This document shows, in pieces, positions 5,345 through 26,132 of a stretch of DNA of 32,000 bases. The position numbers and the translations under genes are program-made. Each line of letters begins with the position of its first letter. Position 1 is the first letter of the stretch. The notes below the pieces were generated by a model. The model searched no databases and was not told the DNA's origin. It worked only from the letters and a program-made list of their open reading frames with translations. Source of the stretch: Haloferax volcanii DS2 (GTDB lineage: Archaea > Halobacteriota > Halobacteria > Halobacteriales > Haloferacaceae); NCBI RefSeq assembly GCF_000025685.1, contig NC_013967.1:450001-482000 (forward strand). The letters run 5' to 3'.

Positions 5345-6357
5345 TGCAATTCGGCTACAGCGAAACGTGTCTCGACCACGACACCGGGCCGCGGCACCCC
5401 GAGACGGCCGACCGACTCCGGGCCATCCGGCGCGGGTTGGCGAAGCGCCACGGCGTCGAGTACGTCGACGCCTCGCCCGCCGAGAAATCCACTGTCGCGG
5501 CCGTCCACGACGACGGCTACGTCGACGAGTTCCACGAGTTCTGTCGCGACGGCGGCGGCAACTGGGACCCCGACACCGTCGCCGTCGAGGCGTCGTGGGA
5601 CGCCGCGCTCACATCCGCCGGCCTCGCGGAGTGGGCCGCCCGCGCCGCGCTCGACGGCGACGACGGCCGCAACACGCCGTTTTCGCTCGGTCGCCCGCCG
5701 GGCCACCACGCCGTCGAGGACGACGCCATGGGCTTTTGCTTCTTCAACAACGCCGCCGTCGCCGCGCAGGCGGTCATCGACGACGGCCTCGCCGAGCGCG
5801 TCGCCATCTTCGACTGGGACGTTCACCACGGCAACGGCACGCAGGACATCTTCTACGACCGCGGCGACGTGTTCTACACGTCCATCCACGAGGACGGCCT
5901 CTACCCCGGCACGGGCGAGGTCGACGAGACCGGCGAGGGCGACGGCGAGGGGTCGACCCTCAACGTCCCGCTCCACGCCGGCGCGGGCGACGCCGACTAC
6001 GTCTACTCGTTCGACGAGGCCATCGCGCCCGCCGTCGAGCGGTTCGACCCCGACCTGTTCATCGTGAGCGCCGGCTTCGACGCCCACCGCCACGACCCCA
6101 TCTCGCGGATGCGCGTCTCCACCGAGGGCTACGCGATGCTCACCGAGTGCGTGCAGGAGCTCTGCGAAGAGACCGACGCCGCCATCGCCTTCGTCCTCGA
6201 AGGTGGCTACGGCCTCGACACGCTCTCCGAGGGCGTCGCGACCGTCCACGAGACGTTCGACGGCCGCATCGCCATGGATCCCGAGGAAGACCCCGACGAG
6301 AAGAACGTCGAGCTAGTCGACGACGTGCGCGCCGCTCACGGCCTCGGCGCGAAGTAG
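5344..6357 (+). CDS. hdaI: Zn-dependent histone/protein deacetylase (class II HDAC / AcuC family)
   Basis: Motifs RPPGHHA, FCFFNN, DWDVHHGNGTQ, SAGFDAH and EGGY are present. The start overlaps the histone stop (TAATG). Confidence 0.9.
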   Translation: MQFGYSETCLDHDTGPRHPETADRLRAIRRGLAKRHGVEYVDASPAEKSTVAAVHDDGYVDEFHEFCRDGGGNWDPDTVAVEASWDAALTSAGLAEWAARAALDGDDGRNTPFSLGRPPGHHAVEDDAMGFCFFNNAAVAAQAVIDDGLAERVAIFDWDVHHGNGTQDIFYDRGDVFYTSIHEDGLYPGTGEVDETGEGDGEGSTLNVPLHAGAGDADYVYSFDEAIAPAVERFDPDLFIVSAGFDAHRHDPISRMRVSTEGYAMLTECVQELCEETDAAIAFVLEGGYGLDTLSEGVATVHETFDGRIAMDPEEDPDEKNVELVDDVRAAHGLGAK

Positions 6358-7715
6358 CGACCCAACTCGGCACCGAACGCCTCCGCGAGCGCGGCCACGT
6401 CGCCGCCAACGAGCACGTCGTATCCGTCCTCTCTGAGCGTCGATTCCACGTGTTTTCCGAGGGCCACGTCGAACAGCGCGTCGCTTTCGAGGAAGCCGGC
6501 CGCCGTGGTGAACTCGCGCTCGCGCTCGACCACGTAGCGGTCGCCGTCGAGGAACGGTCCGTAGTGGTCCTCGCGGTCCTCGTACGCGCCGTAGAACCCC
6601 TCAGCGTGCTGGCGGACGTGGACCGGCGGCCCCTCGTGGCGCTCGACCGCCGGGCGCTCGGCCACCGAGAGTTCCGCGAACAGGGCGGCTTCGCCCTGCC
6701 CCTCGCCGTCGGTGTCGGCGAACGCCGCCCGCCGGAACACGTCGAAGCCGCGTCTGTCGAGGCCGTCGGCGACGCCGGTCAGCGACTTTCTCAGCTGCGG
6801 GTAGAGCTGGTCGTCCACGAGGTCCGGGCAGTCGAAGACGACGGCGACGGCCGTGGTCCCGCGGCGGTCGAGGTGGCTCCGAACGCCGTCGGCGTCGAGC
6901 GCCGGCGGGTCGGGCCGGAAAAACAGCGATTCCCGCGGGTCGGAAAGCAGGTCGCGAGCGTAGTGCTGGAGACGGGCGACGTTCTCCGCCGAGCAGACCG
7001 CCGCGACGTTCCGCTCGGGGTCGGTCGGGTCGATGACGACGAGCGGGTCGGAAAACCGCCGCGTTCCGTGGTCTTCCGGGTCGAACTCGACCTGCGGGCT
7101 CCAGTCGGCGGCCGCCCGGAGCAACGGTTCGAAGCCGCCGTGTCCGACGACGAGAAGCTCGGCGAGATAGCCCGAGAACCCCTCGGTTCGGAGGTCGCTC
7201 CCGTAGGCATCGATACCCTTCAGGAAGCGCTTGAAGACGCGAACGTCCGCCGCGAGGTCGTCGTCGAGGCGCTCGGTCAGGTAGGCGTTGTGAAACGGCG
7301 TTCGGTCGACCGCCGAGCGGATGTCCGAGGCGGACGGCACGTCGTAACAGGGGACGAGGTCCACGTCGAAGCCGTCGTAGTCGCCTTTCACGTAAGGGTG
7401 TTCGGCGTACTCCTCGTGGCCGTCGGGGAGGACGGCGTGACCGACTTCGAGGCCGTACGCTTCGAGTTCCTCGCGGTCGAGGTCGGCCGGAAAGCGCACG
7501 AACAGGTCGATGTCGCGGTCGCCCGAGAGCCACGTGCCGCGGGCGGTGCTGCCGACTTGCAGCGCGTCGGCGTCCACCGGCAGGTCCGCGAGGGCGTCGT
7601 ACACGCGGGATTCGAGGGCCGCCGCGGCGTCCGCGAGCGCCCGACGCTCCGCCTCGTCGGGGTCGATGCGCTCGCGGACCGCGGCGACGACCGCGGCGAG
7701 GTCCGAGTTCGTCAT
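6336..7715 (-). CDS. cca: CCA-adding enzyme (archaeal class I tRNA nucleotidyltransferase)
   Basis: It is 459 aa with ..LQVGSTARGTWLSGDRDIDLFVRFP.. (the GS..G..DxD nucleotidyltransferase motif) and ..RTPFHNAYL... The 3' end overlaps hdaI convergently by 22 nt. Confidence 0.9.
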   Translation of the reverse strand: MTNSDLAAVVAAVRERIDPDEAERRALADAAAALESRVYDALADLPVDADALQVGSTARGTWLSGDRDIDLFVRFPADLDREELEAYGLEVGHAVLPDGHEEYAEHPYVKGDYDGFDVDLVPCYDVPSASDIRSAVDRTPFHNAYLTERLDDDLAADVRVFKRFLKGIDAYGSDLRTEGFSGYLAELLVVGHGGFEPLLRAAADWSPQVEFDPEDHGTRRFSDPLVVIDPTDPERNVAAVCSAENVARLQHYARDLLSDPRESLFFRPDPPALDADGVRSHLDRRGTTAVAVVFDCPDLVDDQLYPQLRKSLTGVADGLDRRGFDVFRRAAFADTDGEGQGEAALFAELSVAERPAVERHEGPPVHVRQHAEGFYGAYEDREDHYGPFLDGDRYVVEREREFTTAAGFLESDALFDVALGKHVESTLREDGYDVLVGGDVAALAEAFGAELGRYFAPRP

Positions 7716-7851
7716 GCCCGCTGGTTTCCCGCGGGCGGGCGAAAGCGTGACGGTGCGCTCGCGACCGCGTCAGGCGGTGGCATCCGCCAGCCGTCGGTTA
7801 AAAACGAAAGCCCTATCAAGAAACATCGAATACGAGAGAGTGCAGACGAAA

Positions 7852-7924
7852 GCCGCCGTAGCTCAGTTGGTAGAGCACCTCGCTGTTAACGAGGTTGTCC
7901 CAGGTTCGAGTCCTGGCGGTGGCG
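7852..7924 (+). tRNA. tRNA-Asn (anticodon GTT)
   Basis: GCCGCCGTAGCTCAGTTGGTAGAGCACCTCGCTGTTAACGAGGTTGTCCCAGGTTCGAGTCCTGGCGGTGGCG. The acceptor is GCCGCCG/CGGTGGC, the anticodon loop CTGTTAA, and the T-loop GGTTCGAGTCC. Confidence 0.9.
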
Positions 7925-8020
7925 CTTCTCCGTTTCTCATCCCGACGGGCGGTTCGTCTCCGGTTCGTCGGCGACGGTTCTGATAAGACATAAGAGGGAC
8001 GACGGGAAAGAATCGGCCGA

Positions 8021-8095
8021 GGGCCCCTAGCTCAGTCTGGTCAGAGCGCTCGGCTCATAACCGGGTGGTCATGGGTTCGAACCCCATGGGGCCCA
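8021..8095 (+). tRNA. tRNA with anticodon CAT; G1:C72 rules out an initiator, so it is elongator Met or tRNA-Ile2 (agmatidine type)
   Basis: GGGCCCCTAGCTCAGTCTGGTCAGAGCGCTCGGCTCATAACCGGGTGGTCATGGGTTCGAACCCCATGGGGCCCA. The acceptor is GGGCCCC/GGGGCCC, the anticodon loop CTCATAA, and there is no intron. Confidence 0.9.
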
Positions 8096-8266
8096 TAATA
8101 ATTTTAGCCGTTTTGTTGCTGGTGGAAAAGTCGACTACGGACCCTAACGCGCCTAAATTCGCCGTTTCCGCGAAATCTCAAAACGCCCGAAAATTCCAAT
8201 TGCATAAGCTCTGCTTACGGACCGGCTCGCGGTCGGGCGATAACTTTAGCCGGGGGTGTTCGGTAG

Positions 8267-8583
8267 ATGTCGCGGGCTCGTCGAGAGACGAACCTGTGGC
8301 GGTACGTCCGCTACGTCTGCGGCAGCTGCAAAGCCTGGTGTCTCGTCGACCACGCTGAGCGCGCGGCGATGCCGTCGTCTGGAACGACGGGCGCGGCCCC
8401 GACGTAGTGTGCGCGTGCTGTAACTCCGGCTGGGCCATTGACCAGGAATGGCTCGACGAACCGGTTTCTGACGACAATCTCTCCGAAGCCCTCGCTGATG
8501 GTGGCGAGTCGGACGCCTCGAGTTCGGAACGCTCGCTGGCTGAACGCTGGCCGAGTGCCAAAGCAGCGGCGAGTGTCGGTTAA
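8267..8583 (+). pseudogene. Broken small zinc-ribbon ORF: 46 codons from the ATG at 8267, continued in the -1 frame from 8359 to 8583
   Basis: Frame A reads MSRARRETNLWRYVRYVCGSCKAWCLVDHAE.. and stops at 8405-8407. Frame B, open from 8359, reads ..GDAVVWNDGRGPDVVCACCNSGWAIDQEWLDEPVSDDNLSEALADGGESDAS.. and stops at the TAA at 8581-8583. Together they give CxxC...CxxC plus an acidic tail. The antisense ORFs in the track are Arg/Ser-rich. Confidence 0.3.
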
Positions 8584-8652
8584 TCACCGACAAAGACGCG
8601 GATACGGAAGCGCGTAGAAACGGAGCTGAAGTACAGCGACGAGACGCTTTCG

Positions 8653-9087
8653 GTGGCGTCGATACTCGGCCGGAACATGATTGACCCGAAGCATGCCGAG
8701 TTCGTCGAATCAGTGATGAACGGGGAGGACGACTCCGAACCGGAGTCGTTCCGCCGGGCTTCACTCTCGTCTGAGTGGCGACTGGAAGCGATTATCGACC
8801 GTGACGGCGAGGAGCACCTGCCCGGAGGTGGCGGCGTCGACATGGCTCCGCTGAAACTCCCCGTCCAGCGGGTGCTGCAAGAGACGCGACTTCAGTACAC
8901 CCTACAGAAAGGCGAGATGTGGCGCTGTTCCGAGTGTAACGTCGGTATCTACCAGACGGAGTGGATGGCTCGCCACTTGGTCGAACAGCACGGCCTCGAC
9001 CGACCGGAGAGCGCTGACCACGTGCTGCACGTAGAGGACTACTTCGACAAGGACCGCGAGTGTATGCGGCACCCAGGTTGCGGCTAG
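8653..9087 (+). CDS. Hypothetical protein with one classical C2H2 (beta-beta-alpha type) zinc-finger motif
   Basis: WRCSECNVGIYQTEWMARHLVEQH at nt 8926-8991 fits C-x2-C-x12-H-x4-H with the conserved hydrophobic positions. The start is the GTG at 8653 or the ATG at 8677. The frame is open back to the TAA at 8581. Confidence 0.55.
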   Translation: MASILGRNMIDPKHAEFVESVMNGEDDSEPESFRRASLSSEWRLEAIIDRDGEEHLPGGGGVDMAPLKLPVQRVLQETRLQYTLQKGEMWRCSECNVGIYQTEWMARHLVEQHGLDRPESADHVLHVEDYFDKDRECMRHPGCG

Positions 9088-10027
9088 TCTTTGAATTTGA
9101 TACTTGATCTTGGACTCATCGAATAGAACCTTTTAAAATCATCATTATCTGAACCCAATAATTGATTTCGTAATATTCGTTTTAGTAATACTAGAGTCGC
9201 TTCTAGCGAGTCAATCAGGTCCGCAGATGAGACATCTGGATCACCGTGAACAACGTAGTTTCGCTCTTTCCTCCAAAAATACTCGGGAGTGTCAAGTATA
9301 CTTGTATATGGAACTACATTATTGGCTAAATCGTCTGTTTCTACGTCCAGTTTTTGATTAAATTCTTGATTTTTGGATCTGTTTTTTCAGATATGCAATC
9401 TTCTCTTGCGTGCCATAGAGCAAGCATTTCGATGGCGCTGCAAGCACTCAGCATCTTTCCTTCGACTGGCCTGTGGGGGTCACGTGCGTCAATATAGTAG
9501 CCGAGTGTCTGCTTAACTCGAAGTTGATCGCGGATCCGCGGCGTGTAATTAGCATACGATTCAGAAATATATTTGTGGAAGTCACCCCACAACACTTTCT
9601 TCGGAAACTGTGTAAATCTGGCACCTGCGTTTGCTGGCCCCCCTGTTTTCAAGATTTCATAATGAGCTTCTATCTCTTCGACTGGTTTTCCTCCGATAGC
9701 AATTATTTTCGAACGGATCTGTCTCGGCGTGACGTCTTGTACGAGCTGAGATAATTCGAGAACTTTGACGACTTCTTCTGTGGCTAAGTTCACTTGGTGG
9801 CACAGGTCGCCGTTCACATCCTGCTTAACTCTGATTTTTGCTGTCCTAATGGGTTGGCTAGTAGACCTGATGTGGTCTCGGCGATCGGTGGTGTCTGTGA
9901 GTGAGATGCCATATATTTCTAGTTCGTCCGTCTCTACGTATGGTATCTCGACCTCATCAGGAATTTCAAATTCGGAATGGCCTTTCTGCTTAGCAAGAAG
10001 CTCTAAGTTCAGTACCTCACAAAGCAT
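9084..10027 (-). pseudogene. HEPN-like (Rx4H) protein gene split by a -1 frame change in an A-run: N-part 9341..10027 (228 codons) plus C-part 9084..9350 (88 codons)
   Basis: The second frame was hand-translated. It has no start codon, so it is absent from the ORF track: LDVETDDLANNVVPYTSILDTPEYFWRKERNYVVHGDPDVSSADLIDSLEATLVLLKRILRNQLLGSDNDDFKRFYSMSPRSSIKFKD*. RNYVVH lies at nt 9246-9263. The gene coincides with the AT-rich patch (two 60-nt lines counted by hand gave 27% and 38% GC). Confidence 0.55.
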
Positions 10028-10127
10028 CCTCGCCTAGCTGTTTCTGAAGCCTGAGTTCTGTGGCGGAGCGGTTGGACTGGCGGTTTCGACGAGAGAATCA
10101 TGGACGGATCGGCGGAGAGCCGTCGCT

Positions 10128-10149
10128 GTCGGCGGCGGCTGCCGCCGAC
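10128..10149. repeat. GC-rich hairpin GTCGGCGGC-ggct-GCCGCCGAC (9-bp stem)
   Basis: A perfect inverted repeat seen directly, about 45 nt downstream of the transposase stop on the minus strand. Confidence 0.6.
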
Positions 10150-10193
10150 GCGACAGCGTCGCCACTCCCACCGTTGGCTAGCCCGGTCGGGAG

Positions 10194-11384
10194 TTACCGG
10201 CTAAACCGGTCGTCTGGTGGTCGGTTCGCGGGGACGGCCCGACGCACCGCGAGGGCCGTCCACGCTGCTCGACGGACCATATTGATGAACTCCTTGAACG
10301 ACCACTCCCAGAGGCGACGCCCCCCACGGCGGGGCGTCGCCACGTACTCCCAGTGCAAATACCGCCAGACGTTCTGTAACAGCAGGCTCACCACGACGTA
10401 CAACAGCCGTACGACCGGATTTTGTGTCGAGGTCGTCGCGATACTTTGCTCGGAGAGTCGATAGCTTGCCTCGATACCGAAGCGTTTCGCGTAGTGGTAT
10501 CGAGCGTCCCGTGGTGAGTCGATGAACGGCGCGTCAGCGGCGTAGCCGTGACGCGCCACCCCATGTTCGTCGTACCGTCCGTTTTGGTAGGTACAGTCGA
10601 TGTAGACGGGAAACTCGACGGTCCAGCTGTGACCGTCGAGTTTCGCTGTCAGACTGTGCTGAATCACGCGACTCCACCCTTCTGAGAGTTCTTGCTTGAT
10701 CGTCCGTCCCCAGCGGACGATCGGCATGACGTAGGCGTGGTTGTGCGCCTGAAGCAGCGTCAAACACTTGCTGTCGTAGAATTCGCGGTCAAGATAGACG
10801 GCCTTGACACCGAGGTCAAGGCCGTCGAGAATACCGAGGAACTCTGCGAGGACACTGCTGGCGGTGTCGCCGTCTTCGAGACGGCGCACCGCCAGCGTGT
10901 AGCGTTTGTTCTTCACGCGTGCGTACAGCGTCGCGTACGCGTGAAACGCGGTGGTTCCACGCTTCGCTTGTGAGTGATACAGGCCGTCTGTATCGTCTTC
11001 GTCGCCGTAGTAGGGCCGCAGGTGGAGGTCTGCGCAGACCTCCACCTGCTGGGGAAGGACGTCGAGAACGTCTTTCTGGAGGAGCATGTTGCCAACCTGT
11101 TCGAGCGTTTCTAGACCGAATTTAGTGCGGAGATGGTAGAGAACGGAGTTTTCGTGGGGTGCATCTTCGCTTCTCTCACAGAGCGTTGAGACCGAGGTCC
11201 CGTCGGCGCAGGCGCCGACGAGGACCTCGTAGATGTCTTCAGCATCGAGTTCAGCGTTTTCAGCGAGTGAGAGAGCAACTTCCTCGTCAAGAGAGTTGAC
11301 GAGGAAGTTAAGGAGCTGGTCCTCGTGGATTTCATCGTCTGTTTGCTGGTTGTTGGACACATCTTCAGCAAGCAGACGTCTCAA
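10194..11384 (-). CDS. DDE transposase, haloarchaeal ISH3-family-like (IS4-related)
   Basis: It is 396 codons. The N-terminus ..EIHEDQLLNFLVNSLDEEV.. and the block YHSQAKRGTTAFHAYATLYARVKNKRYTLAVRRLEDGDTAS match my memory of ISH3-family transposases. Candidate DDE residues are ADLHLRPYYGD, VYLDREFYD and YAKRFGIEASYR (Y-x2-R-x3-E). The first codon after the upstream TAG is TTG, and no ATG lies near the N-terminus. Confidence 0.85.
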   Translation of the reverse strand: MRRLLAEDVSNNQQTDDEIHEDQLLNFLVNSLDEEVALSLAENAELDAEDIYEVLVGACADGTSVSTLCERSEDAPHENSVLYHLRTKFGLETLEQVGNMLLQKDVLDVLPQQVEVCADLHLRPYYGDEDDTDGLYHSQAKRGTTAFHAYATLYARVKNKRYTLAVRRLEDGDTASSVLAEFLGILDGLDLGVKAVYLDREFYDSKCLTLLQAHNHAYVMPIVRWGRTIKQELSEGWSRVIQHSLTAKLDGHSWTVEFPVYIDCTYQNGRYDEHGVARHGYAADAPFIDSPRDARYHYAKRFGIEASYRLSEQSIATTSTQNPVVRLLYVVVSLLLQNVWRYLHWEYVATPRRGGRRLWEWSFKEFINMVRRAAWTALAVRRAVPANRPPDDRFSR

Positions 11385-11408
11385 CTAACCGGCTTTGTGA
11401 TGTACTGA

Positions 11409-11756
11409 ATGTCGTTTGACGACTTCGAAGAAACGCAAGTCGAGGACGACTACGACGACGGAGTAGAGGAAATCAAGTTTGACGTGGACGAACCGGTCAT
11501 CGGCGTTATCGTCGACATCGAGGTCTATCTCTACTGTCCGTGCCCGTTTGCCGAGTCGGAGTCCCGGCAACCGAGGCGCGAACTGGCGCGACTGTCACTC
11601 TCACAACGGTTACGTTGCCCCCGCTCACGTCAACTTTTCAACTTCCCTGCGTTCGTCGCTGATAGCGACGACGAACCCACAGTGGGAGGACGGCGATTGC
11701 GTCCGGGAGCGCTTTCTGACTCTTTAAGGCTTCTAAACTCGGAATCACGGCGATAA
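11409..11756 (+). CDS. Hypothetical ORF; the acidic N-terminus is credible but the rest is doubtful (possible gene fragment)
   Basis: MSFDDFEETQVEDDYDDGVEEIKFDVDEPVIGVIVDIE looks haloarchaeal. After about residue 40 the sequence becomes Arg/Ser/Leu-rich and unlike a real protein. Confidence 0.25.
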   Translation: MSFDDFEETQVEDDYDDGVEEIKFDVDEPVIGVIVDIEVYLYCPCPFAESESRQPRRELARLSLSQRLRCPRSRQLFNFPAFVADSDDEPTVGGRRLRPGALSDSLRLLNSESRR

Positions 11757-11837
11757 GATACGTCTGGGAATTTTTATTATTATACCGAGTAAATGAATAT
11801 CAATCGTTAAGTACGGTGCGTTCGACAGTGTCTATGT

Positions 11838-13211
11838 ATGTCACGCGATAGCCAGTCTAACGACAATCGGCTCAGTCGGCGTCAATACGTCGCTGGGGCG
11901 GGAGCGCTTGCGACGATGGGGCTCGCCGGCTGCTCCGGTGGCGGCGGTTCCAATGACGGCGGCGACGGCAGTACTACTGAAGCGGGCGGCGACGGTAGTA
12001 CTACTGAAGCGGGTGGCGACGGCGGTGACGGGGGAAGCAGCGCCCCGGTTGAGGTGCTTCACGGCTGGACCGGCGGCGACGGCGCCGCGGCAGCTGAAGC
12101 GCTCGAAGCGGCGTTCAACGAGGCCTATCCCGATGTCGGCCTCGACATGAACCCCATCGGCGGCGGCGGGAATCAGAACCTCGACGCCGTCGTGGCGAAC
12201 CGGCTCCAGAGCGACGACCCGCCGGGCGCGTTCGCCAACTGGCCGGGTCCGAACCTCCTCCGCTACGAGGGCGTCCTCGGCAGCGTCGACGACGTCTGGG
12301 AGGAGAACAACTTCGAGGAAGTAATGATCGACGAGGCGGTCGAGCTTCACCAGCAGGGCGGCAGCTATCGAGCCGTTCCGCTCGGTTCGCACCGCCTGAA
12401 CTGCCTGTTCTACAACGTCTCGGTCGTCGACGAGGCGGGCATCGACGTCGACTCGCTGAACAGTCCCTCGGCGCTCATCGACGCGTTCGAGACGGTCCAA
12501 AGCGAGACCGACGCGGTTCCGATGACCCACGCGATGTCCGGGACGTGGACGACGACGCAGCTGTGGGGCGCCGTGATGCTCGCCGTGAACGGCTACCAGC
12601 CGTACATGGACTTCCTCAACGGAGAGGGCTCCGAGAGCGCGGTTCGCTCGGCCTTCGAGACGACTGCGGAGATGCTCGAAAACTACATCTCCGACGACGC
12701 GGCGTCGCTCAACCTCACCGCGTCGAACCAGAACATCATCAACGGCAACGCCGCCTTCATCCATCAGGGTAACTGGGCGGCTGGTGCGTTCCGGAACGCC
12801 GAGAACTTCGCGTACGACGAAGACTGGGGCTTCAAGACGTTCCCCGGCACGGAGGGCATGTACACGCTCCACATGGACTCGTTCCTCTACCCGGCCGACA
12901 ACCCGACGCCGGAGGCGTCGAAGACCTGGGCGGCGTTCGTCGGCAGCCCCGAAGCGCAGATCGCGTTCAACCAGTACAAGGGCTCGATTCCGACGCGAAC
13001 CGACGTGAGCATGGAAGAGTTCGGACCGTACCTCCAGGAGACCGCCGAAGACTTCGCCAACGCGGAGTACCGTCCGCCGAACCTCCAGCACGGCCTCGGT
13101 GTCCCCTCCGAGACGATGACGGCGCTCAACGAAGTCATCTCCTCGGAGTTCACCGGCCCGTACAACGTCGACGCCGCGACGCAGGGGTTCCTGGACGCGG
13201 TCTCGAACTGA
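11838..13211 (+). CDS. Sugar ABC transporter substrate-binding lipoprotein (family 1 solute-binding protein)
   Basis: It has a Tat signal plus lipobox (SRRQYVAGAGALATMGLAGC) and a Gly/Asp/Thr linker. The body is typical of carbohydrate SBPs. It is the first gene of a four-gene ABC operon, and an AT-rich promoter region lies upstream. Confidence 0.9.
   Translation: MSRDSQSNDNRLSRRQYVAGAGALATMGLAGCSGGGGSNDGGDGSTTEAGGDGSTTEAGGDGGDGGSSAPVEVLHGWTGGDGAAAAEALEAAFNEAYPDVGLDMNPIGGGGNQNLDAVVANRLQSDDPPGAFANWPGPNLLRYEGVLGSVDDVWEENNFEEVMIDEAVELHQQGGSYRAVPLGSHRLNCLFYNVSVVDEAGIDVDSLNSPSALIDAFETVQSETDAVPMTHAMSGTWTTTQLWGAVMLAVNGYQPYMDFLNGEGSESAVRSAFETTAEMLENYISDDAASLNLTASNQNIINGNAAFIHQGNWAAGAFRNAENFAYDEDWGFKTFPGTEGMYTLHMDSFLYPADNPTPEASKTWAAFVGSPEAQIAFNQYKGSIPTRTDVSMEEFGPYLQETAEDFANAEYRPPNLQHGLGVPSETMTALNEVISSEFTGPYNVDAATQGFLDAVSN
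11961..12014 (+). repeat. 27-bp tandem repeat, 2 copies plus a partial third, encoding GDGSTTEAG in the SBP linker
   Basis: ggcgacggcagtactactgaagcgggc is followed by ggcgacggtagtactactgaagcgggt (25/27 identical), then ggcgacggcggtgac. Confidence 0.85.
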
Positions 13212-24200: not shown

Positions 24201-24461
24201 TCACTCCCGCGCCGCCGTCAGCTTCTCCCCGAGTCGGTCGGCGTCGACGCGGAACTTGAACGCCGGTCGGCCGTCGACGTAGACGTAGGGCACGCGCTCC
24301 CCGTACTTCTCGCGGAGTTCCTCGTCGCTGTCGACGTTCACGAGGTCGATATCGACCGTGACATCCACCTCGTCTGCGACCTCGCGAACGGTCGCTTCGG
24401 CCTCGTCGCAGAGGTGACACTCCGTGCGCGTGTAGATGACGATGGGGACGGCGTCGCTCAT
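24201..24461 (-). CDS. Glutaredoxin-like small thioredoxin-fold protein
   Basis: It is 86 aa. VIYTRTECHLCDEA carries the CxxC active site and ..VPYVYVDG.. is typical of the glutaredoxin-like family. Confidence 0.8.
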   Translation of the reverse strand: MSDAVPIVIYTRTECHLCDEAEATVREVADEVDVTVDIDLVNVDSDEELREKYGERVPYVYVDGRPAFKFRVDADRLGEKLTAARE

Positions 24462-24716
24462 CGTCCGATGTCGTCGCCGCGGCCTGTTGAGTCTTCTCGT
24501 CGTATCTTATCAGATCACAAATTTGTTTCTGAATCGGGTCTGTTTGAGTTTTTAATCTAACAGTATCGGGTGTCAGAGTCAGAACTCGTCCGAGAAAACG
24601 GCTGACACCGGCGTCGTATACGTCTCACCGAATCGAATATGTTAATTTTCGTCTGTTGATAATACGTCGTAAATTTTCTAACTCAGAACCGAATACATAA
24701 CGAACGAGTACAATTT

Positions 24717-26132
24717 ATGACAGTCGATACTGACGCACCCGAGGCGGACGGTCGAAACCGGTTCGTCTACGTGACGGCCGCGCTCGCCGCCCTCAACGGA
24801 CTGCTGTTCGGGTTCGACACGGGCATCATCTCGGGCGCGTTCCTCTACATCAGAGACGCGTTCACGATGACGCCGCTGGTGGAGGGCATCGTCGTCAGCG
24901 GCGCGCTGGCGGGCGCGGCACTCGGCGCGGCGCTCGGCGGTTACCTCGCAGACCGATGGGGTCGCAGGCGGCTCATCCTCGTCAGCGCCGTCGTCTTCTT
25001 CGTCGGCTCGCTGGTGATGGCTATCGCGCCGACCGTCGAGGTGCTCGTCGTCGGGCGACTCATCGACGGCGTCGCCATCGGCTTCGCCTCTATCGTCGGC
25101 CCGCTGTATCTCTCCGAAATCGCGCCGCCGAAGATTCGCGGTTCGCTGGTCTCGCTGAACCAGCTCGCGGTCACGGTCGGCATCCTCTCGTCGTACTTCG
25201 TCAACTACGCCTTCGCCGACGGCGGGCAGTGGCGCTGGATGCTCGGCACCGGCATGGTGCCCGCGGTCATCCTCGCGGTCGGGATGGTGTTCATGCCCGA
25301 GAGCCCCCGCTGGCTGGTCGAACACGACCGGGAGTCGAAGGCCCGTGACGTGCTCTCGCGGACCCGCACCGACGACCAGATTCGGGCCGAACTCGCAGAG
25401 ATTAACGAGACCATCGAGGCGGAAGACGGCGGCCTGCTCGACCTCCTCGAACCGTGGATGCGCCCGGCGCTCGTCGTCGGCGTCGGCCTCGCCGTCCTCC
25501 AGCAGGTCACCGGCATCAACACGGTCATCTACTACGCGCCGACGATTCTCGAATCGACCGGCTTCGAGTCCTCGGCGTCCATCCTCGCCACGGTCGGCAT
25601 CGGCGTCGTCAACGTCGTCATGACCGTCGTCGCGGTCGTTCTCATCGACCGTCGGGGCCGCCGCCCGCTGCTTTCGGTCGGCCTCGCGGGGATGACGCTC
25701 ACGCTCGTCGCGCTCGGCGCGGCGTTCTACCTGCCGGGCTTTTCGGGATTCGTCGGCACGGTCGCCACCGGGAGCCTCATGCTCTACGTGGCCTTCTTCG
25801 CCGTCGGTCTCGGCCCGGTGTTCTGGCTTCTCATCTCCGAGATTTACCCGCTGAAGGTCCGCGGGACGGCCATGGGCGTCGTCACGGTGTTCAACTGGGT
25901 GGCGAACCTCGCGGTATCGCTCGCCTTCCCCGTCATGGTCGCAGAAATCACGACCGCGGGGACGTTCTGGGTGTTCGCGGCGCTGAGCGCCGTCGCGCTC
26001 GCGTTCACCTATCGGTTCGTCCCCGAGACGAAGGGGCGGTCGCTGGAGGCCATCGAATCCGACCTCCGGGAGAACGTGCTCGGCGGGTCGCCGGACGGGT
26101 CGTCGGCCGGGACCGTCTCTGACGACGACTGA
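24717..26132 (+). CDS. MFS transporter, sugar porter family (sugar:H+ symporter-like)
   Basis: It is 471 aa with 12 TM segments and the motifs GFDTGIISGA, DRWGRRR, PESPRWL, VIDRRGRR and PETKGRSLEAIE. Confidence 0.9.
   Translation: MTVDTDAPEADGRNRFVYVTAALAALNGLLFGFDTGIISGAFLYIRDAFTMTPLVEGIVVSGALAGAALGAALGGYLADRWGRRRLILVSAVVFFVGSLVMAIAPTVEVLVVGRLIDGVAIGFASIVGPLYLSEIAPPKIRGSLVSLNQLAVTVGILSSYFVNYAFADGGQWRWMLGTGMVPAVILAVGMVFMPESPRWLVEHDRESKARDVLSRTRTDDQIRAELAEINETIEAEDGGLLDLLEPWMRPALVVGVGLAVLQQVTGINTVIYYAPTILESTGFESSASILATVGIGVVNVVMTVVAVVLIDRRGRRPLLSVGLAGMTLTLVALGAAFYLPGFSGFVGTVATGSLMLYVAFFAVGLGPVFWLLISEIYPLKVRGTAMGVVTVFNWVANLAVSLAFPVMVAEITTAGTFWVFAALSAVALAFTYRFVPETKGRSLEAIESDLRENVLGGSPDGSSAGTVSDDD

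What the first reader, a model, noticed from the sequence alone, without database searches (positions are those of the whole stretch)
9084..10027. AT-rich single-gene cassette encoding a HEPN-like (RNYVVH) protein, split by a -1 frame change in an A-run
Seen: the minus-strand ORF 9341..10027 stops at a TAG. The -1 frame is open from 9386 down to a TAG at 9084-9086, giving 88 more codons that are invisible in the ORF track because they lack a start codon. The switch region contains the A-runs GAAAAAAC, CCAAAAATC and TCAAAAAC. The joined product of about 315 aa ends ...EYFWRKERNYVVHGDPDVSSADLIDSLEATLVLLKRILRNQLL. The gene matches the extent of the only strongly AT-rich patch in the window. Established: R-[N/H/D]-x3-H (Rx4-6H) between helices near the C-terminus is the catalytic signature of HEPN RNases (Abi/ApeA-like toxins, Csm6, Cas13). 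Inference: this is a horizontally acquired HEPN toxin or abortive-infection type gene. It could be inactivated by a 1-nt deletion, mis-assembled at a homopolymer, or (least likely) expressed by -1 slippage at C AAA AAC. The N-terminal ~230 aa match nothing I recognise.
Basis: partly seen in the sequence, partly recalled or inferred. Interest (0 to 1): 0.7.

Follow-up and report, generated by a model that had tools for sequence, protein, structure and literature searches.

The report
Broken relic of HEPN-like gene
This AT-rich stretch of the Haloferax volcanii chromosome is the dead remnant of a foreign gene of about 440 codons whose end probably encodes an RNA-cutting (HEPN-like) domain; an insertion sequence removed its first third and a one-base loss split the rest, so the locus is an ordinary pseudogene, though the intact family it comes from has not been described.

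Summary
The sequence features are real: minus-strand ORF 10027..9341, TAG at 9343-9341, -1 frame open to 9084, A-runs and RNYVVH. The gene model is wrong at its 5' end. The window is H. volcanii DS2 (locus HVO_0527). The ATG and first 6-7 codons lie inside the terminal inverted repeat of an ISH3-family (ISH51-like) insertion sequence at 10008-11408. Homology to the real gene starts at 10006-10007, at residue ~135 of intact homologues of 420-444 aa. The missing N-terminal third is not in the window, and the IS has no target duplication. All homologues read through the junction in one frame; one base is missing from the A-run 9351-9355. The lesion is identical in three independent assemblies and 97 contigs, so it is not an assembly error. 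The site is not a canonical slippery heptamer and no downstream structure follows it. The family is small, unannotated, always AT-rich, and sits alone beside integrases, TnpB, a resolvase/provirus and a defence island. Its R and H (Rx4H) and a helix-2 Glu are invariant, and the only credible fold hits are HEPN proteins, but no profile or fold match is significant. Verdict: decayed relic of a probably HEPN-type, mobile, toxin- or defence-like gene. The locus is ordinary; the family deserves modest interest.

The parts
9084..9350 (-). 3' segment of the relic, in the -1 frame relative to the upstream part. It corresponds to residues 353-440 of the intact homologue P0001: the end of the inserted helices, helix 3 with RNYVVH (9263-9246), and the long last helix. 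The stop is TAG 9086-9084.
   Evidence: Translation. tblastn to P0001 residues 353-440 at 70% identity. Alignment A1. No start codon in this frame.
9351..9355 (-). A5 run where one base has been lost (ancestral AAA AAR, Lys-Lys). This puts everything downstream out of frame.
   Evidence: tblastn segments abut at 9350 with query residues 352/353 contiguous. Codon-level comparison with five homologous genes.
9341..9343 (-). Premature TAG created by the frameshift. It ends the 228-aa ORF.
9356..10007 (-). 5'-truncated body of the relic, corresponding to residues ~135-352 of the intact homologue. It covers the alpha/beta middle domain and the first helices of the C-terminal helical domain, including the invariant Glu of CSAIE (codon 9430-9428).
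   Evidence: tblastn 10006..9350 to P0001 residues 135-352. Alignments A1 and A4. Structure model of P0001.
10008..11408 (-). ISH3-family (ISH51-like) insertion sequence of about 1.4 kb that cuts off the gene's 5' third. Inverted repeats are 10008-10025 and 11392-11409. The transposase ORF is 10194-11384 (-). The ATG at 10027-10025 used by the 228-aa ORF lies inside this element. There is no target-site duplication.
   Evidence: Inverted repeat I1, 17/18 complementary. NF033541 ISH3 transposase, E=3.6e-115. Sixty plasmid copies align to window 10008/9-11408/9 at 86-93% identity. IS-free strains resume at 11408.
8677..9087 (+). Convergent neighbour, a C2H2-type hypothetical protein. Its last ~13 nt fall beyond the breakpoint (~9075) where the relic's DNA begins relative to strain L012. 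Its stop shares the CTAG with the relic's stop.
11409..11756 (+). HVO_0529A (115 aa), native sequence on the far side of the IS. It is unrelated to the relic, and it shows that the two IS flanks are not the two halves of one gene.
   Evidence: No family homology here.
7852..8095 (+). tRNA-Asn(GTT) 7852-7925 and tRNA-Met(CAT) 8021-8095, at the conserved edge of the strain-variable segment that holds the relic. This is a possible integration hot spot.
   Evidence: Strain comparison.

Best explanation
Region 9084-10007 is HVO_0527 of Haloferax volcanii DS2. It is a non-functional relic of a horizontally acquired single gene.

The intact gene (420-444 aa in other haloarchaea) encodes three parts:
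- an N-terminal beta-rich domain of about 120 aa;
- an alpha/beta middle domain;
- a C-terminal helical domain that most likely is a divergent HEPN RNase domain. It has an invariant Glu in a long helix, an invariant R-N-x3-H at the end of the next core helix, and then a long final helix.

By analogy with single-protein HEPN defence toxins such as ApeA, the intact protein probably uses its N-terminal domains as sensor or regulator and cuts RNA through a composite R/H site in a dimer. This would arrest growth on infection or on invasion by a mobile element.

In DS2 two lesions destroyed the gene:
1. An ISH3-family (ISH51-like) element sits at codon ~135. Because there is no target duplication and unrelated DNA lies on its far side, the promoter and first third of the gene were removed by an IS-associated deletion or rearrangement.
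2. One base was lost from an A-run. This separates the Glu-bearing part from the RNYVVH-bearing part, which has no start codon.

The 228-aa ORF that gene callers report is an accidental fusion that starts inside the IS inverted repeat.

Shown: the pseudogene anatomy, the strain identity, the conservation pattern and the mobile contexts. Inferred: the HEPN fold, the RNase activity and the defence role.
For: Anatomy:
- ORF, stop and open -1 frame.
- 23 close homologues, of which the complete ones are 402-454 aa, reading through the junction in a single frame.
- Homology starts at 10006, residue 135 of P0001. The N-terminal third is absent from the window.
- IS limits and family.
- Codon-level 1-nt loss.

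Reality of the lesion: 100% identity in L009, L010 and L011. The identical 228-aa product is on 97 contigs, and the older call is HVO_0527.

Foreign and mobile character:
- GC 0.435 versus 0.663. Family genes are AT-rich relative to their flanks in all 6 other loci.
- The segment between cca/tRNAs and the ABC transporter differs between Haloferax strains.
- Intact homologues lie beside a resolvase and pleolipovirus-like genes, next to an Orc1/Cdc6 gene and TnpB in a stretch that also carries DndE, helicase and AAA_23 ATPase genes, beside integrases, and on two haloarchaeal plasmids. None has a conserved partner gene.

HEPN-like character:
- R382, H387, E326, Y376 and F377 (P0001 numbering) are invariant in 31 sequences down to 23% identity.
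- The residue after R is N, Q or H in nearly all members.
- E is followed at +4 by K in many of the distant members (ELLAK). This matches the Rx4-6H and Ex3[KR] hallmarks, and the placement at the end of helix 3, described in PMC3710099.
- The AF2 model of P0001 has pLDDT 89.4 and pTM 0.88. Its helices are 314-336 (Glu), 379-387 (motif) and 394-417.
- Foldseek: the only hit with probability above 0.5 for the full model is the HEPN protein 2hsb (prob 0.77, TM 0.54). For the C-terminal model the top hit is the HepT toxin 7bxo_F (prob 0.57, TM 0.51). It is followed by 7ae6, 4nqf and Las1/LAS1L, which are HEPN or HepT-family entries by their PDB titles or by my own knowledge.
- There are weak HEPN_Apea and Cas13-ApeA hits over the motif in one member.
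- HepT is also the closest structural neighbour reported for the ApeA HEPN domain.
Against: - No HEPN assignment reaches significance. All Foldseek E-values exceed 0.3.
- There are no Pfam, NCBIfam, PADLOC or PDB sequence hits at threshold.
- hhalign against 30 genuine HepT/PF01934 proteins aligns R with R and H with H, but with probability 0.27% and E 0.23.
- No experiment shows RNase activity, toxicity or virus protection for any member.
- No family member is present in the phage collection.
- I could not search the rest of the DS2 genome, so the missing 5' part may survive elsewhere beside another ISH51 copy.
- The order of the two lesions is unknown.
Confidence: 0.75

Rival explanations
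1. The gene is functional and is expressed as one polypeptide by programmed -1 ribosomal frameshifting, or by transcriptional slippage, at the A-run C AAA AAC.
For: An A5 run lies exactly at the frame junction, and the two frames overlap by 15 codons.
Against: - All homologues are single-frame at this site.
- C AAA AAC is not a canonical X XXY YYZ heptamer.
- The 85 nt downstream fold no better than shuffles (z = -0.17).
- Even a corrected product would lack the ~134 N-terminal residues and would start inside an IS.
Confidence: 0.02
2. The frameshift is a homopolymer sequencing or assembly error, and the reading frame is really continuous.
For: The lesion lies in a homopolymer, the classic error site.
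Against: - Three independent assemblies (NCBI GCA_018419995.1, SRR19410019, SRR6491592) are 100% identical over the site.
- The same truncated 228-aa product is called on 97 contigs.
- A 5-base run is short for Illumina error (my own knowledge).
- The 5' truncation would remain in any case.
Confidence: 0.03
3. The locus is a relic as described, but the C-terminal domain is not a HEPN RNase. The conserved E, YF, R and H would serve some other helical enzyme or binding function. The family could then be a mobile-element or provirus accessory protein of another kind.
For: - There is no significant profile or fold match to any HEPN family.
- Small helical bundles give TM ~0.5 matches easily.
- The N-terminal and middle domains match nothing.
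Against: - Invariance of exactly R-x4-H with a polar residue after R, plus an upstream helix Glu, fits the published HEPN signature.
- HEPN proteins are the only PDB hits with appreciable probability, in two independent models.
- Weak ApeA-HEPN hits fall precisely on the motif.
Confidence: 0.25
4. The IS-fused 228-aa ORF (middle domain plus half of the helical domain) is expressed by read-through from the transposase gene and has acquired a new role, for example as a decoy or dominant-negative partner.
For: - The transposase gene and the relic are co-oriented, with about 170 nt between the transposase stop (10194) and the ATG (10027).
- PGAP calls the ORF a protein in some assemblies.
Against: - No intact partner copy of the family was seen in the window or on any Haloferax plasmid in the plasmid collection.
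- The start codon is an accident of the IS repeat sequence.
- No paper mentions HVO_0527.
Confidence: 0.04

Closest known systems
ApeA (single-protein HEPN anti-phage system; Pfam HEPN_Apea PF18739)
   Same: - One self-contained protein, with no partner gene.
- Three-part build: N-terminal domain, middle domain, and a C-terminal HEPN-type domain with insertions.
- An Rx4H motif.
- Location in islands or mobile elements.
- The closest solved structural neighbours of the catalytic domain are the minimal HepT toxins in both cases.
- One family member gives weak HEPN_Apea and Cas13-ApeA hits over the motif.
   Different: - No hit at threshold to ApeA models in Pfam or PADLOC.
- Size of about 440 aa. 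The Ec2ApeA HEPN domain alone ends at residue 583.
- The N-terminal domain here is beta-rich, whereas E. coli ApeA is predominantly helical.
- Distribution is almost entirely haloarchaeal.
- Oligomer state, ligand and tRNA cleavage are untested.
HepT/MntA (HEPN-MNT) type II/VII toxin-antitoxin toxins (PF01934/DUF86; PDB 7bxo, 7ae6, 5yep)
   Same: - Best Foldseek neighbours of the C-terminal domain.
- R-[ND]-x3-H followed by a short loop and a long last helix. hhalign's only alignment puts R on R and H on H.
   Different: - The alignment is not significant (Prob 0.27%).
- No adjacent nucleotidyltransferase antitoxin in any of the 12 distinct genomic contexts examined.
- The family carries about 260 extra N-terminal residues.
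ISH3-family insertion sequences (ISH51 / ISH3B-like) of haloarchaea
   Same: - Transposase matches NF033541 at E=3.6e-115.
- 18-bp terminal inverted repeats.
- About 1.4 kb long.
- 86-93% identical to annotated ISH3B or 'ISH51' copies on haloarchaeal plasmids.
   Different: This copy has no flanking target-site duplication, and its two flanks are unrelated. It therefore marks a deletion or rearrangement junction rather than a simple insertion.
Decayed toxin or defence genes in variable genomic islands (generic pseudogenisation by IS plus homopolymer indel)
   Same: - AT-rich foreign gene in a strain-variable segment next to tRNA genes.
- Two independent disabling lesions.
- Other metagenomic members of the family are also frameshifted fragments (P0054, P0055, P0057).
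   Different: Nothing unusual. This is the ordinary fate of such genes.

Membership tests
HEPN superfamily | Conserved Rx4-6H motif with a polar residue (N/D/H) right after the Arg | tested here: met
   RNYVVH at 9263-9246. R and H are invariant in 21 close and 31 distant homologues. The residue after R is N, Q or H in nearly all. Definition from PMC3710099.
HEPN superfamily | Second conserved acidic residue in helix 2, typically Ex3[KR], near the motif | tested here: met
   The Glu of CSAIE (P0001 E326; window codon 9430-9428) is invariant. It lies in the long helix 314-336 of the model. The +4 position is K in many of the distant members (ELLAK) but L in the clade nearest the window. Spatial proximity to R/H could not be measured.
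HEPN superfamily | [quoted passage not shown] | tested here: inconclusive
HEPN superfamily | Significant profile match to an established HEPN family | tested here: not met
   No Pfam, NCBIfam or PADLOC hit at threshold. The best is HEPN_Apea at 15.3 bits against a cut-off of 24.4, in 1 of 10 members. hhalign versus HepT/PF01934 gives Prob 0.27%. PDB sequence searches were negative.
HEPN superfamily | Metal-independent RNase activity from a composite dimeric active site | not testable with these tools
   Needs biochemistry or multimer modelling.
ApeA defence system | Match to HEPN_Apea / ApeA N-terminal domain models (Pfam, PADLOC) | tested here: not met
   Only one sub-threshold hit, restricted to the motif.
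ApeA defence system | Single protein: N-terminal and middle domains plus C-terminal HEPN, no partner gene | tested here: met
   Model domains. No conserved neighbour in 12 distinct genomic contexts. This shows resemblance of design, not homology.
HepT-MntA toxin-antitoxin | Adjacent minimal nucleotidyltransferase (MNT) antitoxin gene | tested here: not met
   No NTP_transf_2-type neighbour next to any homologue.
ISH3-family insertion sequence | ISH3 transposase, terminal inverted repeats, multiple near-identical copies | tested here: met
   NF033541, 384 bits. IR 17/18. 60 plasmid records with copies.
ISH3-family insertion sequence | Short target-site duplication flanking a simple insertion | tested here: not met
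   The flanks are CTAAG (10003-10007) versus ATGTC/TGTCG (11409-11414). The flanks are unrelated sequences.
Programmed -1 frameshift site | Slippery X XXY YYZ heptamer, downstream stimulatory structure, and the frameshift conserved in homologues | tested here: not met
   C AAA AAC is non-canonical. The downstream fold has z = -0.17. All homologues are single-frame.

The most novel reading that the evidence does not exclude
The intact family may be a previously undescribed single-protein abortive-infection or defence RNase of haloarchaea. It has about 40 clusters at 50% identity, is almost all haloarchaeal, and has one relative in a Candidatus Dojkabacteria (bacterial) genome. It would combine two sensor domains with no detectable structural relatives and an extremely divergent HEPN effector, and it would be carried as cargo by integrative elements, proviruses and plasmids. 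HVO_0527 would then be the fossil of such a system in the standard laboratory strain. This suggests DS2 lost a toxin that can be resurrected and tested in its own host.
Probability: 0.4. Interest if true: 0.55.

Novelty: new variant of a known kind. Interest (0 to 1): 0.3.

Why it matters
- **For the locus itself, little.** It corrects an annotation. HVO_0527, the 228-aa 'hypothetical protein', is an IS-fused, frameshifted fragment that should be flagged as a pseudogene. It also documents an ISH51-type rearrangement junction in a strain-variable segment next to tRNA-Asn and tRNA-Met in the model archaeon.
- **For the family, somewhat more.** Few archaeal anti-virus toxins have been characterised. 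This is a compact, rare, unannotated family with a high-confidence structure model, an invariant E...Rx4H signature and mobile-element or defence-island contexts. An intact homologue could be tested directly in H. volcanii, which naturally lacks a working copy.

Tried and rejected
- **Known-family searches.** I scanned the repaired 314-aa protein, 20 full-length homologues and 10 isolated C-terminal domains against Pfam, NCBIfam, PADLOC and PHROGs. Nothing reached threshold.
- **PDB sequence searches.** Both family profiles and one member found nothing relevant.
- **Profile-profile test against HepT.** I wrote a DUF86-like consensus from memory, used it only as bait to fetch real PF01934 proteins, and ran hhalign. 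The result was in register but not significant.
- **Bridging search.** A word-indexed search with the C-terminal profile at E<=10 returned only family members.
- **Missing N-terminal third.** It is not in the window. No Haloferax plasmid in the plasmid collection carries a family member. The rest of the chromosome could not be scanned.
- **att-like direct repeats.** I looked for repeats of the tRNA 3' ends across 7800-12000 and found none.
- **Giant BACON-repeat protein.** P0056 gave 14 weak matches to the middle domain. I rejected this as a beta-strand repeat artefact.
- **Literature.** A search for HVO_0527 returned no paper.
- **HEPN paper supplement.** The supplement of the 2013 HEPN paper holds only links, not alignments.
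Full report
**1. Observation**

- The minus-strand ORF 10027..9341 encodes 228 aa and ends at TAG 9343-9341.
- The -1 frame is free of stops from 9386 to the TAG at 9086-9084. Given the local composition, 101 stop-free codons have a chance of about 4e-4.
- This frame contains no ATG, GTG or TTG upstream of the motif.
- RNYVVH is encoded at 9263-9246.
- The three A-runs are present.
- GC is 0.435 over 9084-10007, against 0.663 for the window.

There are small corrections. The product continues 24 residues beyond ...RNQLL. A second short AT-rich patch exists at 24461-24780.

**2. Where the window comes from**

Exact look-ups place the window on the Haloferax volcanii DS2 main chromosome.
- The CCA-adding enzyme at 6336-7715 is ADE03282.1 / D4GS58_HALVD.
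- An older 158-aa call of the ORF is HVO_0527.
- The 115-aa ORF at 11409-11756 is HVO_0529A.
- No paper in the library mentions HVO_0527.

**3. The gene is 5'-truncated by an insertion sequence**

A search with the frame-repaired 314-aa product found 23 homologues, all annotated 'hypothetical'. They come from haloarchaeal genomes and hypersaline metagenomes, are 33-63% identical, and the complete ones are 402-454 aa.

In the alignment, the window copy lacks their first ~134 residues. tblastn places the start of homology at 10006, which is residue 135 of P0001. It finds no trace of the N-terminal third anywhere in the 32 kb.

The cause is the neighbouring element.
- ORF 10194-11384 (-) is an ISH3-family transposase (NF033541, E=3.6e-115).
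- An 18-nt inverted repeat pairs 10008-10025 with 11392-11409.
- Sixty haloarchaeal plasmid records hold copies, annotated ISH3B or 'ISH51'. The best copies are 86-93% identical, and their alignments stop at window 10008/9 and 11408/9.

The ATG at 10027-10025 and the codons 'MLCEVLN' therefore belong to the IS terminal repeat. The 228-aa 'protein' is an accidental IS-gene fusion.

In Haloferax strains without the IS, native sequence resumes exactly at 11408 (AATGTCG..., the start of HVO_0529A). What lies to the left there is unrelated to this gene. The five bases flanking the IS differ: CTAAG versus ATGTC/TGTCG. So this is not a simple insertion with the other half of the gene next door. It is a deletion or rearrangement junction.

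**4. The frameshift is a real 1-nt deletion, not an error or a recoding signal**

All homologues read ...KI-x-[HN]-L-[IV]-x-K-L-x-V-E-T-x-D-L-A... in one frame.

At the DNA level, homologues have GAA AAG TTA GAT, GAT AAG CTT GAT, AAT AAA CTC AAT or ACG AAG CTG GAT. The window has AAA AA- CTG GAC. The two tblastn segments abut at 9350 with no residue lost. One base is therefore missing from the run at 9351-9355.

The lesion is real.
- Three independent assemblies (GCA_018419995.1, SRR19410019, SRR6491592) are 100% identical to the window across the site.
- The same truncated 228-aa product was called on 97 contigs.

This argues against mis-assembly.

Programmed frameshifting has no support.
- No homologue is frameshifted.
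- C AAA AAC is not X XXY YYZ.
- The 85 nt downstream fold no better than shuffled sequence (z = -0.17).
- The corrected product would still be truncated.

**5. What the intact protein looks like**

AlphaFold2 on P0001 with 20 homologues gave mean pLDDT 89.4 and pTM 0.88. The model has three parts:
- a beta-rich domain (about residues 1-120);
- an alpha/beta domain (about 130-255);
- a helical domain (276-430).

A profile search of 1.84 billion representatives found only 40 clusters, so the family is rare.

In an alignment of 31 members down to 23% identity, the invariant residues are G261, E326, Y376, F377, R382 and H387. These are the Glu of CSAIE, the YF just before the motif, and the Arg and His of R-N-Y-V-V-H.

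In the model, the Glu sits in the long helix 314-336. The motif sits in helix 379-387, followed by a loop and the long helix 394-417.

This matches the published HEPN description (PMC3710099):
- a polar residue follows the R;
- a conserved acidic residue lies in helix 2, often as Ex3[KR].

In this family, many of the distant members read E-L-L-A-K.

**6. How strong is the HEPN call?**

It is suggestive, not proven.

Foldseek of the full model against PDB gave no significant hit. The only match with probability above 0.5 was the HEPN protein AF_0298 (2hsb: prob 0.77, TM 0.54 normalised to the target).

A separate model of the C-terminal 180 residues (P0023, pLDDT 70.7) had these hits:
- its top hit was the HepT toxin 7bxo_F (prob 0.57, TM 0.51);
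- further hits were 7ae6, 4nqf, and Las1/LAS1L, whose nuclease domain is a HEPN domain by my own knowledge;
- all had E>1.

One of ten members gave a sub-threshold HEPN_Apea hit covering the motif (E=0.028, 15.3 bits versus a cut-off of 24.4). The same member gave a PADLOC Cas13-ApeA hit (E=0.019).

A profile-profile comparison with 30 genuine HepT/PF01934 proteins produced a single alignment. It puts R on R and H on H, but with probability 0.27%.

I put the HEPN assignment at about 0.65.

**7. Context and likely biology**

Family genes are AT-rich relative to their flanks in every locus examined: 0.31-0.51 against 0.41-0.63.

They have no conserved neighbour, and they lie in these settings:
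- beside a resolvase and pleolipovirus-like provirus genes in Halococcus sediminicola;
- next to an Orc1/Cdc6 gene and TnpB, in a stretch that also carries DndE, a cysteine desulfurase-type gene, an SNF2-type helicase and an AAA_23 ATPase;
- between or beside integrases;
- next to TnpB in Halarchaeum;
- on two haloarchaeal plasmids.

None is in the phage collection. Several metagenomic members are themselves frameshifted fragments.

In H. volcanii the relic lies in a segment between cca/tRNA-Asn/tRNA-Met and an ABC-transporter operon. This segment carries different cargo in other Haloferax strains, including pleolipovirus-type genes in one.

The design is a single protein with two N-terminal domains and a C-terminal HEPN-type effector. 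That is the design of ApeA, an abortive-infection tRNA anticodon nuclease whose HEPN domain also has HepT as its closest structural neighbour.

The most likely mechanism of the intact protein is therefore a sensor-gated, dimeric, metal-independent RNase that stops growth on infection. This is an inference by analogy. Membership in the ApeA family itself was tested and not met.

**8. Verdict**

The locus is an ordinary pseudogene. It is a foreign toxin- or defence-type gene disabled twice, by an IS-associated 5' truncation and by a homopolymer deletion.

The parent family is undescribed and worth a modest follow-up.

Noticed in passing
window 7852-7925 and 8021-8095: tRNA-Asn(GTT) and tRNA-Met(CAT) sit between cca and the strain-variable segment. 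Other Haloferax strains carry quite different genes between these tRNAs and the ABC-transporter operon. One has DUF8063/DUF8125/DUF8126/DUF7961, which look pleolipovirus-type (L013). The site looks like an integration hot spot, but I found no att-like repeat.
   Followed up: partly
window 24461-24780: A second short AT-rich patch (minimum GC 0.395). It appears to be the intergenic region upstream of the ORF that starts at ATG 24717. No tRNA or Rfam hit.
   Followed up: no
window 8298-9087 (+): The C2H2-type hypothetical protein is 136 aa in DS2 (8677-9087). A 263-aa version (WP_239527723.1) exists in other H. volcanii/alexandrinus genomes. The last ~13 nt of the DS2 gene lie beyond the breakpoint with strain L012. 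DS2 may therefore carry an altered or shortened allele.
   Followed up: no
window 11409-11756 (+), HVO_0529A: The first 114 nt of this 115-aa ORF match the start of a 302-aa gene in strain L014 (94.7% identity). The window then lacks L014's following ~5 kb. HVO_0529A may itself be a truncated remnant.
   Followed up: no
L002 1-7842 and L003 (metagenome contigs carrying intact homologue P0005): An apparent defence island lies upstream of the family gene. It contains DndE, a cysteine desulfurase, an SNF2/DEAD helicase, an Sp-CxC protein and an AAA_23 ATPase, followed by an Orc1/Cdc6 gene. A TnpB gene lies downstream.
   Followed up: no
P0054, P0055, P0057 (metagenomic fragments); L008 102-290 (Halapricum hydrolyticum): Other members of the family are also frameshifted or reduced to short fragments. 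This suggests frequent decay of this gene family.
   Followed up: partly
L007 3040-4380 (Candidatus Dojkabacteria MAG): A full-length relative (about 31% identity) occurs in a candidate-phyla-radiation bacterium, outside the haloarchaea. It is followed by a 445-aa ORF of similar size with no detectable family.
   Followed up: no
P0045 residues 1-70: One distant member carries an extra N-terminal IclR-like winged-helix domain fused to the family core.
   Followed up: no
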